NCBI GenBank assembly: GCA_049968235.1
Contig: JBMFRC010000062.1
Location: 1 to 526 of the forward strand
DNA: 526 nucleotides
Direction of reading: 5' to 3'
Source of the DNA: Candidatus Hydrogenedens sp.
GTDB taxonomy: Bacteria > Hydrogenedentota > Hydrogenedentia > Hydrogenedentales > Hydrogenedentaceae
Shown: positions 1 through 526 of the stretch, in pieces
How positions within the stretch are numbered: the stretch's first letter is position 1
Layout of the letters: every line of letters starts with the position of its first letter
Translations under genes and position numbers: made by a program
Notes under the pieces: generated by a model
Databases searched by the model: none
Told to the model about the DNA's origin: nothing
Seen by the model: only the letters and a program-made list of their open reading frames with translations

Positions 1-271
1 TATCATCAACTACATTATATAACTTATAATAAAAATCTACTGGCTTAGATAAAATAACATAATCATCAAAATATTGTATCGTGTTATAATTCTCAAGCAT
101 ATATTCAATATTATTTAAAATAGGTATTGCATTTTCATCTGCAATTAATTTCCAGTTTGGTGTTAATTCTTTTAATTGATTAATACAAGAAGAACTTAAT
201 TGTTTTAATGCAAGTAGATAAGTAATACTTTCTAGTAAATATATATTTGGTTTAAATTTTACATTTAACAT
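1..271 (-). CDS. Hypothetical protein, N-terminal 90 aa, with the 3' end beyond the window start. Translation from ATG 271-269: MLNVKFKPNIYLLESITYLLALKQLSSSCINQLKELTPNWKLIADENAIPILNNIEYMLENYNTIQYFDDYVILSKPVDFYYKLYNVVDD...
   Basis: The minus-strand frame is open for 90 codons from ATG(271-269) to the window edge. I checked that no plus-strand triplet at positions 2-4 through 269-271 is tta, cta or tca. At about 21% GC, roughly 9% of random codons are stops, so a 90-codon open frame arises by chance with probability of order 1e-4. The opposite strand in this phase is full of taa/tag, the usual antisense signature. Codon use is strongly A/T-ending, and the product is rich in N, Y, I, L and K. 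No Shine-Dalgarno precedes ATG-271. An alternative in-frame ATG at 334-332 lies just after the in-frame stop TAA at 340-338. Confidence 0.7.
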   Translation of the reverse strand, partial: MLNVKFKPNIYLLESITYLLALKQLSSSCINQLKELTPNWKLIADENAIPILNNIEYMLENYNTIQYFDDYVILSKPVDFYYKLYNVVDD

Positions 272-278
272 GAAAATT

Positions 279-307
279 AATTTAATAATATTGCAAAAAA
301 ATACCAA
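279..307 (-). promoter_or_regulatory. Candidate sigma-70-type promoter for the minus-strand gene: -35 TTGGTA (plus coords 307-302), 17-nt spacer, -10 TAAATT (284-279), ending 7 nt upstream of ATG-271, which implies a leaderless or near-leaderless transcript
   Basis: On the minus strand the sequence reads TTGGTA-tttttttgcaatattat-TAAATT-aattttc-ATG. The -35 matches TTGACA at 4/6 and the -10 matches TATAAT at 4/6. The -10 to ATG distance is typical of leaderless mRNAs, which fits the absence of any SD upstream of ATG-271. A second -10-like hexamer, TATTAT (290-285), is also present. Confidence 0.25.
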
Positions 308-314
308 CTTTAAT

Positions 315-344
315 TTCACGTTTTTAAGATGCATAAATTAATAT
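315..344 (+). promoter_or_regulatory. Candidate sigma-70-type promoter for the plus-strand gene: -35 TTCACG (315-320), 18-nt spacer, -10 TAATAT (339-344), predicted TSS near 351
   Basis: This is a by-eye hexamer match: -35 4/6 to TTGACA and -10 4/6 to TATAAT, with the TA...T positions kept. It would give a roughly 22-nt leader carrying the SD. Many near-equivalent AT-rich hexamers exist in this region, so the assignment is weak. Confidence 0.3.
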
Positions 345-362
345 TCGTAATCAAAAAATTTT

Positions 363-368
363 AGGAGG
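363..368 (+). promoter_or_regulatory. Shine-Dalgarno ribosome-binding site (AGGAGG) for the plus-strand CDS
   Basis: A perfect AGGAGG lies 5 nt upstream of ATG-374 and is immediately preceded by an A6T4 tract (353-362). Confidence 0.8.
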
Positions 369-373
369 ATGCC

Positions 374-526
374 ATGTTAAAAGAAGCACTTTTAGAACTT
401 ATCAAAGAATTAAAAATGTCTGGTGTTTTGAAAAGAGCAGAGGTCAAAAACAGTCGCCTAGTTATCATTGAGTTAAACAGAGGAATTGAGGAGATCAACG
501 AGACTTTATACTGGAGAATTATGGAT
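374..526 (+). CDS. Hypothetical protein, N-terminal 51 aa, with the 3' end beyond the window end. Translation: MLKEALLELIKELKMSGVLKRAEVKNSRLVIIELNRGIEEINETLYWRIMD...
   Basis: ATG at 374 is the first start codon after the in-frame stop TAG (362-364) and is preceded by AGGAGG (363-368) with a 5-nt spacer. The frame stays open for 51 codons to the window end. The N-terminus is E/K/L-rich and predicted helical. I recognise no family motif. Confidence 0.8.
   Translation, partial: MLKEALLELIKELKMSGVLKRAEVKNSRLVIIELNRGIEEINETLYWRIMD

What the first reader, a model, noticed from the sequence alone, without database searches (positions are those of the whole stretch)
1..526. Sharp codon-usage and composition break between the two divergent genes
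Counting third codon positions directly: the minus-strand gene has only about 6 of 87 non-Met/Trp codons ending in G or C (about 7% GC3), and its overall GC is about 21%. The plus-strand gene has about 16 of 46 G/C-ending codons (about 35% GC3) at about 33% GC, using gag, atc, aac, gtc and cgc. The proteins differ too. The minus product has the N/Y/I/K-heavy bias of extremely AT-rich genomes (N 13/90, Y 11/90), while the plus product is E/K/L-rich. A difference this large is unlikely from sampling noise even over 46-90 codons. It suggests the two genes have different evolutionary histories, for example a junction inside a horizontally acquired accessory or defence island, or one gene recently inserted beside the other. 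Alternatively the plus gene may be codon-optimised for high expression, which would fit its perfect SD.
Basis: seen in the sequence. Interest (0 to 1): 0.5.

Follow-up and report, generated by a model that had tools for sequence, protein, structure and literature searches.

The report
Swappable gene cassette beside phage helicase
The sudden change in base composition is real: it marks where a conserved phage helicase gene and its control region meet a small exchangeable gene, one of a class that uses different codons and a different translation start signal from the rest of this very AT-rich, T4-like virus.

Summary
The composition break is real. GC3 is 6/87 in the minus gene and 15/47 in the plus gene (Fisher p=3e-4). 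The best GC change-point is at position 363 (permutation p=0.0065).

The minus gene is the N-terminus of a 564-aa DnaB-like helicase. It belongs to an uncultured phage of about 24% GC, probably T4-like, on contigs of 111-125 kb. The plus gene belongs to a rare ORFan family of about 70 aa.

In related contigs the helicase is followed by an array of small genes. Each has a conserved leader of about 90 nt, an AGGAGG SD, an ORF of 60-85 aa and a GC-stem terminator. A near-identical relative matches the window with 1 mismatch in 121 nt up to position 357. After that it carries an unrelated gene. The compositional break therefore coincides with a recombination breakpoint, as in the PeSL cassettes of T4-type hyperplastic regions.

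The higher GC3 is a property of the whole cassette class: 20-45% against 4-19% in core genes. It is codon-specific: more NNC, less ATA, and little change at fourfold sites. It is confined to ORF bodies and persists through synonymous saturation. That fits a distinct translation regime better than recent import from a GC-rich donor.

Core genes lack SDs (0/32). Many carry TAAATTA-N6-ATG, a leaderless-type start.

The parts
2..271 (-). First 90 codons of a 564-aa DnaB-like replicative helicase (core phage gene). GC 20.7%, GC3 6.9%.
   Evidence: Translation. 99% aa identity to the full-length ORFs L001 1451-3145 and L002 31-1725. Pfam DnaB_C 7e-11 and phrog_19 6e-27.
272..301 (-). Start signal of the helicase: TTTTTTTGC (301..293), N8, TAAATTA (284..278), N6 (277..272), then ATG. 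There is no Shine-Dalgarno. This looks like a -10-type TAnnnT element placed for a leaderless or near-leaderless mRNA.
   Evidence: The same architecture precedes 17 of 32 core genes in L002, L005 and L007, and also occurs in L008. TAAATTA-N6-ATG occurs 8 times in L005 against 0.54 expected.
307..346 (+). Conserved core of the repeated cassette leader, ACTTTAATTTCA..G..TTTAGATGCATAAATTAATATTC. It contains TAAATTA at 334-340. This is the presumed promoter of the plus gene, with an inferred transcription start near 346-347.
   Evidence: Eight copies aligned, with 26 invariant columns. Repeat families in L001 and L003. Secondary blastn matches of window 274-368 to other cassettes. No canonical sigma-70 match. 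No RNA structure, z = 0.75.
357..363 (.). Homology breakpoint (357/358) together with the GC change-point (363). To the left the sequence is shared with relatives. To the right it is a different ORF.
   Evidence: Window 237-357 equals L004 1-121 with one mismatch at 333, and mismatches accumulate from 358. Identity to L001 is 97% over 1-271, 81.5% over 272-362 and about 50% over 363-526. Change-point.
363..368 (+). Shine-Dalgarno AGGAGG, 5 nt before the ATG.
   Evidence: An SD is present in 10 of 11 genes in the array positions and in 0 of 32 core genes.
374..526 (+). First 51 codons of an ORFan cassette gene of about 70 aa. GC 33.3%, GC3 31.9%. The predicted fold is a small alpha-beta-beta-alpha-beta domain. 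Function unknown.
   Evidence: The only homologue among 1.84 billion representatives is P0001 (70 aa, 52% identity, E 2e-6). A distant paralogue is L003 122-337. The AF2 model of P0001 has pLDDT 93.4. No significant PDB or BFVD match.

Best explanation
The window spans a divergent junction in an uncultured, very AT-rich phage that is probably T4-like. On one side is a core replication gene, a DnaB-like helicase. On the other is the first unit of a hyperplastic array of small accessory genes.

Each unit is a self-contained expression cassette. It has a conserved leader of about 90 nt carrying a TAAATTA promoter-like motif, a perfect AGGAGG Shine-Dalgarno, an ORFan of 60-85 aa, and a GC-stem/T-run terminator. 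The repeated leaders serve as recombination sites, so ORFs are deleted, inserted or replaced between related genomes. This is the behaviour described for the PeSL regulatory cassettes of T4-type phages. In the window the exchange point lies at 357-363, which is why the composition changes there.

The size of the change has a second cause. Cassette ORFs as a class use a different codon dialect from the core genome: C-ending NNY codons, few ATA codons, and more AAG and GAG. They also use SD-dependent initiation. Core genes have no SD, and many start 6 nt after a TAAATTA motif, which is the leaderless type.

The most likely reason for the dialect is sustained selection on these SD-led mRNAs for decoding by the unmodified host translation apparatus. 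Recent arrival from a GC-rich donor is less likely.

Shown: the gene identities, the repeat structure, the breakpoint, the class-wide codon shift and the SD dichotomy.

Inferred: promoter function, timing of expression, recombination as the mechanism, and selection as the cause.
For: (1) Identity and context. The helicase hits Pfam and PHROG models. Neighbours include a 5'-3' exonuclease, a DNA ligase (1e-43) and a T4 gp63-like RNA ligase (2.5e-47). Precomputed Pfam hits give Phage_T4_gp13 and a weak Gp23. Contigs are 111-125 kb.

(2) Cassette anatomy. Repeated leaders are documented. A terminator follows each cassette gene: 6 terminator-like sites at three positions in L004, one after each cassette gene, against 0.4 expected; and in L005 the strongest ones (5 G-C pairs), three in number, sit in the array. 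All 4 AGGAGG sites in the 15 kb of L005 lie in the array.

(3) Breakpoint. The window matches L004 with 1 mismatch in 121 nt up to position 357 and is unrelated afterwards. L004 and L001 carry a 62-aa gene in this position. The plus-gene homologue is the second cassette in L004 and the fourth in L003/L005, and is absent from L001.

(4) Different histories. The 62-aa alleles of L001 and L004 share 60% aa and 67% nt identity. Only 54% of conserved residues keep the same codon. The adjacent helicase stretch is 97% identical in nucleotides between the window and L001/L002.

(5) Class-wide shift. Core GC3 is 4-19%, against 20-45% for SD-led cassettes (Mann-Whitney p = 2.5e-4 and 2.5e-3).

(6) Codon specificity:
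- NNC/NNY rises from 19% to 56% (p = 1e-12).
- ATA/Ile falls from 51% to 11%.
- NNG/NNR rises from 13% to 28%.
- Fourfold GC rises only from 6% to 18% in one lineage, and from 10% to 13% (not significant) in the other.

(7) The elevation is limited to ORF bodies. Cassette non-coding DNA is 21-27% GC. Codons 2-16 have GC3 of 20% against 34% for the rest.

(8) Internal control. The one small gene in the array that has a core-type TAAATTA-N6 start and no SD also has core-type GC3 of 13.7%.

(9) Precedent. PeSL-mediated shuffling is described in PMC2839356 and PMC4122927. Differences in codon usage between temporal gene classes of phages are described in PMC5683454.
Against: - No transcription data exist. 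The conserved leader does not match the sigma-70 consensus, so its promoter role and the early timing are inferred.
- The leader and the core genes share the TAAATTA motif. Temporal class alone may therefore not separate the two gene sets.
- The host is unknown, so 'host-adapted codons' is untested.
- FYMINK residues are fewer in cassette proteins (34% against 45%), and fourfold GC is somewhat higher in one lineage. Some contribution from a less AT-biased source pool is therefore not excluded.
- The assignment as T4-like rests on a few hits. The gp13 hit was not reproduced by my own Pfam scan, and the helicase has no tblastn match in 50,697 phage records.
- Only about 40 kb of related sequence and 9-11 cassette genes were available.
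Confidence: 0.65

Rival explanations
1. Recent horizontal acquisition. The plus gene, and cassette ORFs in general, were imported from a GC-richer donor (the host or another phage) and have not yet drifted to the composition of the recipient genome.
For: The homology breakpoint lies exactly at the composition break. The cassettes are ORFans that differ between close relatives. Cassette proteins have fewer FYMINK residues, and fourfold GC is higher in lineage A. The SD usage is foreign to the style of the core genes.
Against: The elevation persists in alleles that are saturated at synonymous sites. It is concentrated at NNY and ATA codons, not spread across all synonymous sites, and in lineage B fourfold GC is not significantly raised. 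The non-coding parts of the cassettes are as AT-rich as the core. No donor was found: there were no hits among 5.8 billion protein clusters, and only one hit (P0001, from a related phage contig) among 1.84 billion representatives.
Confidence: 0.2
2. A pure expression-level effect with no mosaicism. The plus gene is simply a highly expressed resident gene with optimised codons and a strong SD.
For: A perfect SD goes together with the NNC-rich, ATA-poor codon pattern. The AT-rich 5' codons are typical of efficiently initiated mRNAs.
Against: Mosaicism is directly observed. Near-identical flanks carry unrelated ORFs. The putative major capsid gene, expected to be among the most highly expressed, has GC3 of 11.8% and 11/14 ATA codons. 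High expression as such therefore does not raise GC3 in this phage.
Confidence: 0.08
3. An artefact of sampling, amino-acid composition or strand. Short ORFs, different protein compositions or strand asymmetry could produce the apparent break.
For: The plus ORF has only 47 informative codons in the window. GC1 also differs.
Against: Fisher p = 3e-4 and change-point p = 0.0065. The contrast is replicated in 8 further SD-led cassette genes from 3 related contigs. The tests are synonymous, within amino acids. Core genes on both strands are equally AT-rich.
Confidence: 0.02

Closest known systems
PeSL (promoter-early stem-loop) regulatory cassettes in the hyperplastic regions of T4-type phages (Arbiol et al. 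2010, PMC2839356; Comeau et al. 2014, PMC4122927)
   Same: Both have repeated intergenic modules of about 100 nt that combine a terminator stem-loop, a promoter, an SD and a start codon. The modules sit upstream of small ORFans and cluster in a variable region between core genes. Indels and replacements between closely related phages end in the repeats.
   Different: The conserved motif here is not a sigma-70-like -35/-10 pair. It is a 40-nt motif of this phage lineage built around TAAATTA. The phage clade is very distant from the published T4-likes (no tblastn hit). The cassette ORFs form a distinct codon-usage and SD class against an SD-less core, which neither PeSL paper mentions in a term search. 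Mini-circles were not tested.
Temporal-class codon usage in phages: early versus late genes and phage tRNAs (Mioduser et al. 2017, PMC5683454; Cowe & Sharp 1991 on T4, from memory)
   Same: Two sets of genes within one phage genome differ systematically in synonymous codon choice. The AT-rich ATA codon is concentrated in core and structural genes.
   Different: Timing is not known here. The helicase, typically an early or middle gene, shares the TAAATTA motif with the cassettes yet has core-type codons. The split follows the translation start signal rather than a demonstrated temporal class. No tRNA genes lie in the sequence available.
Leaderless bacterial genes recognised by a -10 TAnnnT element about 7 nt upstream of the start codon with no SD (general knowledge, e.g. 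Zheng et al. 2011, from memory)
   Same: The core genes, including the window's helicase, have TAAATT(A)-N6-ATG and no SD.
   Different: This applies to a phage clade with AT-rich genomes, not to Actinobacteria or Deinococcus hosts. No TSS data exist. The motif could instead be a non-SD translation signal.
Phage morons and integron gene cassettes
   Same: These are small accessory genes, each a self-contained unit with its own regulatory signals, of atypical composition, variably present between relatives.
   Different: No integrase or attC sites are present, and there is no lysogenic context. Exchange appears to go through homologous leader repeats. The atypical composition is confined to the ORFs and is codon-specific.

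Membership tests
PeSL-type regulatory cassette array (T4-type hyperplastic region) | Repeated conserved intergenic motif of about 100 nt upstream of small ORFans, clustered between core genes | tested here: met
   Eight leader copies were aligned. Repeat families were found in L001 and L003. The arrays lie between the helicase and the next core gene.
PeSL-type regulatory cassette array (T4-type hyperplastic region) | Motif contains a strong sigma-70-like early promoter (-35/-10) | tested here: inconclusive
   The consensus scan finds no sigma-70 site in the conserved core. A TAnnnT-like TAAATT element is invariant. Promoter activity was not tested.
PeSL-type regulatory cassette array (T4-type hyperplastic region) | Stem-loop terminator or attenuator associated with each motif | tested here: met
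   GC-stem plus T-run hairpins follow each cassette gene in L004 and L005, well above shuffle expectation. None lies inside the window, because its cassette is the first one and faces the helicase.
PeSL-type regulatory cassette array (T4-type hyperplastic region) | SD and start codon at the 3' end of the motif | tested here: met
   An AGGAGG-type SD precedes 10 of 11 genes in the array positions. In the window it is at 363-368.
PeSL-type regulatory cassette array (T4-type hyperplastic region) | Differences between closely related genomes end within the motifs | tested here: met
   Window and L004 differ by 1 mismatch in 121 nt up to position 357 and are unrelated afterwards.
PeSL-type regulatory cassette array (T4-type hyperplastic region) | Excision as mini-circles carrying one ORF and a chimeric motif | not testable with these tools
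   This needs PCR or read-level evidence.
T4-like myovirus | T4 core genes present (gp23 capsid, gp13, gp41-type helicase, RNase H, ligases) on a genome larger than 100 kb | tested here: inconclusive
   Hits: DnaB-like helicase, 5'-3' exonuclease, DNA ligase, gp63-like RNA ligase. Precomputed Pfam gives Phage_T4_gp13 and a weak Gp23 on contigs of 111-125 kb. My own Pfam scan did not reproduce gp13, and only 145 aa of the capsid candidate were available. The helicase has no tblastn hit in known phages.
Horizontally acquired island of foreign base composition | Composition deviates at all synonymous site classes and in the flanking non-coding DNA | tested here: not met
   Fourfold GC is only weakly raised, or not significantly raised. 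The shift is concentrated in NNY and ATA codons. Cassette non-coding DNA is 21-27% GC.
Translationally selected (host-adapted) codon usage | Preference for NNC in two-fold pyrimidine boxes, avoidance of ATA, strong SD | tested here: met
   NNC/NNY is 56% against 19%. ATA/Ile is 11% against 51%. SD present in 10/11 against 0/32.
Translationally selected (host-adapted) codon usage | Match to the codon usage of the host's highly expressed genes and its tRNA pool | not testable with these tools
   The host is unknown. No tRNA genes lie in the loci held.
Leaderless genes | -10 TAnnnT element 6-8 nt upstream of the start codon and no SD | tested here: met
   TAAATTA-N6/7-ATG precedes 17 of 32 core genes, and 0 of 32 have an SD. 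The motif occurs 8 times against 0.54 expected in L005. This holds at sequence level only.
Leaderless genes | Transcript 5' end at or within a few nt of the start codon | not testable with these tools
   This requires dRNA-seq or 5' RACE.

The most novel reading that the evidence does not exclude
This phage clade runs two translation regimes. Most of its genes are expressed from leaderless mRNAs that lack an SD (TAAATTA-N6-ATG) and use extreme AT codons. A swappable set of SD-led, host-codon-adapted cassette genes is translated by the untouched host machinery. These would be the first proteins made, and they might help switch the cell towards translation of leaderless mRNAs and AT-rich codons, for example by acting on the anti-SD, on IF3 or S1, or on the tRNA pool. 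The composition break in the window would then mark the boundary between the two regimes.
Probability: 0.15. Interest if true: 0.85.

Novelty: new variant of a known kind. Interest (0 to 1): 0.55.

Why it matters
A composition break visible in 526 bases turns out to mark a recombination joint in a modular accessory-gene array of an undescribed phage lineage. That extends PeSL-type modular shuffling to a very distant, extremely AT-rich clade.

There is also something that I did not find in the two PeSL papers consulted. The exchangeable genes form a separate class in codon usage and in translation initiation, set against a core genome that lacks Shine-Dalgarno sequences and appears to start many genes without leaders.

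If confirmed experimentally, this would be a clean natural system for two questions. One is how phages partition their genes between host-mode and phage-mode translation. The other is how selection, rather than foreign origin, can create island-like composition signals that mislead HGT detectors.

Tried and rejected
Searches that found nothing:
- blastn of the window against phage and plasmid collections.
- Exact-pattern scans of IMG/VR and GTDB genomes.
- The search for related loci in viral contigs with both proteins, with the full-length helicase and with the family alignment, and in genome contigs.
- Word-indexed protein searches with the two window fragments.
- tblastn of the helicase and of the plus fragment against 50,697 phage records.

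Family and fold searches on the two window fragments:
- Pfam, PHROGs, NCBIfam and PADLOC gave only sub-threshold noise, such as Cdc6/ORC winged-helix at E about 0.01-0.02. I do not rely on these.
- The fold of the 70-aa family has no significant PDB or BFVD match. The best results were E about 0.03-0.04 with TM no higher than 0.58, with only a vague KH-like resemblance.

Ideas tested and dropped:
- The conserved leader as an RNA structure: z = 0.75.
- The leader as a canonical sigma-70 promoter.
- A T4 MotA-box reading of TTTTTTGC. The spacing to the -10-like element is 8 nt, not the 11-13 nt expected; this was my own inspection.
- The short ORF MHKLIF... inside the leader. It is best explained as the conserved DNA motif read in frame, and it probably lies upstream of the transcription start.
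- Strand asymmetry as the cause.

Other points:
- The JGI product name for P0001, 'spore coat polysaccharide biosynthesis protein SpsF', looks wrong for a 70-aa ORFan.
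Full report
**1. The observation**

The window holds two divergent ORFs that both run off its ends. The minus-strand ORF starts at ATG 271..269 and continues to position 2 (90 codons). The plus-strand ORF starts at ATG 374, five bases after AGGAGG (363-368), and continues to 526 (51 codons).

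My recount:
- Plus gene: GC 33.3%, GC3 15/47 = 31.9%.
- Fisher exact p = 3e-4.
- The residue counts were slightly overstated. N is 10 and Y is 9 in the minus product.

A likelihood change-point analysis of GC puts the break at position 363, with 19.6% GC to the left and 35.6% to the right. Only 0.65% of permutations do as well. A secondary optimum lies near 417. The first 20 codons of the plus gene are still AT-rich.

**2. What the two genes are**

Neither fragment matched Pfam, PHROGs, NCBIfam or PADLOC at a meaningful level. Neither had a word-indexed homologue. The DNA had no match in the phage, plasmid, IMG/VR or GTDB collections.

A back-translated scan of metagenome contigs found three loci. 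In L001 and L002 the minus ORF is the N-terminus of a 564-aa protein with a Walker A motif. It matches DnaB_C (7e-11) and phrog_19, 'DnaB-like replicative helicase' (6e-27).

Its neighbours and relatives point to a phage:
- a 5'-3' exonuclease (phrog_107, 1e-16) and a weak Rz-like spanin;
- in relatives found with the full helicase, an ATP-dependent DNA ligase (1e-43), a T4 gp63-like RNA ligase/tail-fibre attachment protein (2.5e-47) and a virion structural protein;
- precomputed Pfam hits to Phage_T4_gp13 and, weakly, Gp23, on contigs of 111.6 and 125.7 kb.

This is therefore a large phage of 24-28% GC, probably a distant T4-like myovirus. It is very far from sequenced phages. The helicase has no tblastn hit in 50,697 phage records. 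My own Pfam scan did not reproduce the gp13 hit. I hold the T4-like label with moderate confidence only.

The plus ORF has a single homologue among 1.84 billion representative proteins. That is P0001, 70 aa, 52% identical over residues 1-50, E = 2e-6. A more distant paralogue of 71 aa lies in L003/L005. The family is thus a rare ORFan of about 70 aa. AlphaFold predicts a confident small alpha-beta-beta-alpha-beta domain for P0001 (pLDDT 93.4). It has no significant match in the PDB or BFVD. Its function is unknown.

**3. The surroundings: a cassette array**

In L001, L003/L005 and L004 the helicase is followed, on the opposite strand, by three or four small genes. In all but one of them (see section 6), each small gene has four parts:
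- a conserved leader whose core is ACTTTAATTTCA.G..GTTTAGATGCATAAATTAATATTC;
- an AGGAGG-type SD 5-8 nt before the ATG;
- an ORF of 60-85 aa;
- a GC-rich hairpin followed by a T-run.

The small proteins fall into several families: two cytoplasmic families of 62 and about 70 aa, a secreted family of about 80 aa, a lipoprotein, and tiny hydrophobic peptides.

The hairpins are well above chance. L004 has 6 terminator-like sites at three positions, one after each cassette gene, against 0.4 expected. In L005 the strongest ones (5 G-C pairs), three in number, lie in the array. The window's intergenic region 272-373 is one such leader. Its bases 274-368 also hit other cassette leaders in L001 and L003.

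The leader does not fold as RNA (z = 0.75). It does not match a sigma-70 consensus.

**4. The break is a recombination joint**

L004 starts inside the helicase gene. It is identical to window 237-357 apart from one mismatch at 333. From 358 onward the two are unrelated. L004 continues with a 62-aa gene whose homologue also occupies this slot in L001.

The homologue of the window's plus gene is the second cassette in L004 and the fourth in L003/L005. It is absent from L001.

Against L001, identity is 97% over the helicase part (1-271), 81.5% over the leader (272-362) and about 50%, which is random, beyond 363. The homology breakpoint (357/358) and the GC change-point (363) therefore coincide.

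The cassette alleles are also much older than their flanks. The 62-aa genes of L001 and L004 share 60% aa and 67% nt identity. Only 54% of conserved residues keep the same codon, and the positions of G/C-ending codons are essentially independent between the two. The adjacent helicase stretch is 97% identical in nucleotides and 99% in amino acids between the window and L001/L002.

More distant relatives have no array next to the helicase. These are L007 (helicase 54% identical) and L008/L009 (40%).

This is the pattern described for the PeSL regulatory cassettes of T4-type phages. Those are promoter, stem-loop and SD modules repeated in hyperplastic regions, and recombination between them deletes, inserts or replaces ORFans (PMC2839356, PMC4122927).

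**5. Why the composition differs**

The difference is not peculiar to the window.

- GC3 of core genes is 4-19% in L001, L002, L005 and L007. GC3 of SD-led cassette genes is 20-45%. Mann-Whitney p = 2.5e-4 and 2.5e-3 in the two lineages.
- The shift is codon-specific. C-ending NNY codons rise from 19% to 56% (p = 1e-12). ATA falls from 51% to 11% of Ile codons. G-ending NNR codons rise from 13% to 28%.
- GC at fourfold sites rises only from 6% to 18% in one lineage. In the other it goes from 10% to 13%, which is not significant.
- GARP residues are unchanged. FYMINK residues are somewhat fewer.
- The non-coding parts of the cassettes are as AT-rich as the core (21-27% GC). The first 15 codons after the ATG are less GC3-rich than the rest (20% against 34%, p = 0.002).
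- Synonymous sites between alleles are saturated, yet every allele keeps the elevated NNC usage. The elevation therefore looks like an equilibrium maintained by a continuing force, not the fading trace of a GC-rich donor.

It is also not a generic high-expression signature. The 145 available codons of the putative major capsid gene have GC3 of 11.8%, NNC 6/25 and ATA 11/14.

**6. A second dichotomy found on the way**

None of 32 core genes has an SD-like tetramer in the 22 nt before the start. Ten of the 11 genes in the array positions do. All four AGGAGG sites in the 15 kb of L005 lie in the array.

Instead, 17 of 32 core genes carry TAAATTA exactly 6-7 nt before the ATG. The window's helicase is one of them: tttttttgc-aatattat-TAAATTA-attttc-ATG, positions 301..269 on the minus strand. 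The motif is often preceded by TTTTTTGC at a fixed 8-nt distance. TAAATTA-N6-ATG occurs 8 times in L005 against 0.54 expected. It is also present in L007 and L008.

A TAnnnT element about 7 nt upstream of an SD-less start is the recognised sequence signature of leaderless genes (general knowledge). The cassette leaders contain the same TAAATTA, but about 30 nt upstream of the ATG and followed by the SD.

There is a telling internal control. One small gene in the array has the core-type start and no SD (L005 3078-3308). It also has core-type GC3 of 13.7%. Codon usage thus tracks the type of translation start. It does not track gene size, strand or position.

**7. Interpretation**

*Best explanation (confidence about 0.65).* The window is the joint between the conserved part (helicase plus leader) and a swappable SD-led ORF in a PeSL-like hyperplastic array of a phage that is probably T4-like. 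The compositional contrast reflects a class-wide codon and translation regime of the cassette genes. That regime is most simply maintained by selection for decoding by the host's own apparatus. The mosaic history is shown. Promoter function, timing and selection are inferred.

*Rivals:*
- Recent import from a GC-richer donor (0.2). The breakpoint and the ORFan nature favour it. The codon-specific pattern, the AT-rich non-coding parts and the persistence through saturation disfavour it.
- Pure expression optimisation without mosaicism (0.08). The observed replacement and the capsid gene contradict it.
- Chance, amino-acid composition or strand artefact (0.02). Replication in related contigs contradicts it.

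The two genes do have different histories and the region is accessory. But it is a phage array and not a defence island, and the GC shift itself is not evidence of foreign origin.

**8. Novelty and score**

PeSL-type shuffling is known. Differences in codon usage between temporal gene classes of phages are also known (PMC5683454). Three things are new here: the phage clade; the non-sigma-70 leader motif; and the coupling of cassette identity to SD use and codon dialect, against an SD-less core that looks leaderless. I classify it as a new variant of a known kind, with interest 0.55.

The most novel reading not excluded is a two-regime translation strategy linked to host takeover. I give it a probability of about 0.15. 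It would be of high interest if true.

Noticed in passing
window 269-301 (minus strand); L005 548-563, 975-990, 1628-1643, 3306-3321, 3415-3430, 9162-9177, 11460-11475; L002 3-33, 5709-5739, 6866-6896; L007 2055-2085; L008 upstream of genes at 833, 874, 2498: Core genes of this phage clade lack Shine-Dalgarno sequences (0/32). Many start exactly 6-7 nt after TAAATTA, often with TTTTTTGC 8 nt further upstream. This is a leaderless-type start signal conserved across relatives whose helicases are only 40-54% identical.
   Followed up: partly
L005 14676-15110: The putative gp23-like capsid gene fragment uses ATA for 11 of 14 Ile codons and has GC3 of 11.8%. This suggests dependence on an ATA-decoding tRNA, possibly phage-encoded. 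No tRNA genes lie in the 15 kb held.
   Followed up: partly
L005 3078-3308 (= L003 1205-1435): A 76-aa lipoprotein gene sits in the array position next to the helicase. It has the core-type TAAATTA-N6 start, no SD, no conserved leader, and core-like GC3 of 13.7%. It serves as a natural control linking start-signal type to codon usage.
   Followed up: yes
L003 320-404 and 677-761 (= L005 2193-2277, 2550-2634): Two adjacent cassettes share a 99% identical 85-nt stretch that covers the leader, the SD and the first six codons (MHELIN). They then diverge completely. Exchange points can therefore lie inside the 5' coding region.
   Followed up: partly
window 330-362: A short ORF, MHKLIFVIKKF*, lies inside the leader and ends at the TAG that overlaps the SD. 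In L003/L005 the same ATGCAT... reads in frame into the downstream gene and inflates the ORF calls (86 and 76 aa instead of 71 and 61). It is probably just the conserved DNA motif, upstream of the inferred transcription start.
   Followed up: partly
L001 1159-1347 vs L004 144-332: The 62-aa cassette proteins are only 60% identical, although the flanking helicase and leader DNA is 93-99% identical across these genomes. This indicates either very fast turnover or allele exchange in the accessory genes.
   Followed up: yes
L004 512-724 (P0001): The source annotation of this 70-aa ORFan is 'spore coat polysaccharide biosynthesis protein SpsF (cytidylyltransferase family)'. That looks like a mis-annotation.
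   Followed up: no
P0014: A helicase relative at 34% identity, on a 34.7-kb contig, is labelled in NCBI as a Candidatus Aenigmarchaeota MAG protein. It may be a phage contig mis-binned into an archaeal MAG.
   Followed up: no
L001 936-1007 and 312-380 (minus strand): Some cassettes in L001 encode only tiny hydrophobic peptides of 22-23 aa behind a full leader and SD (GGAGG or GGGGG). They may be degenerate or micro-protein cassettes.
   Followed up: no
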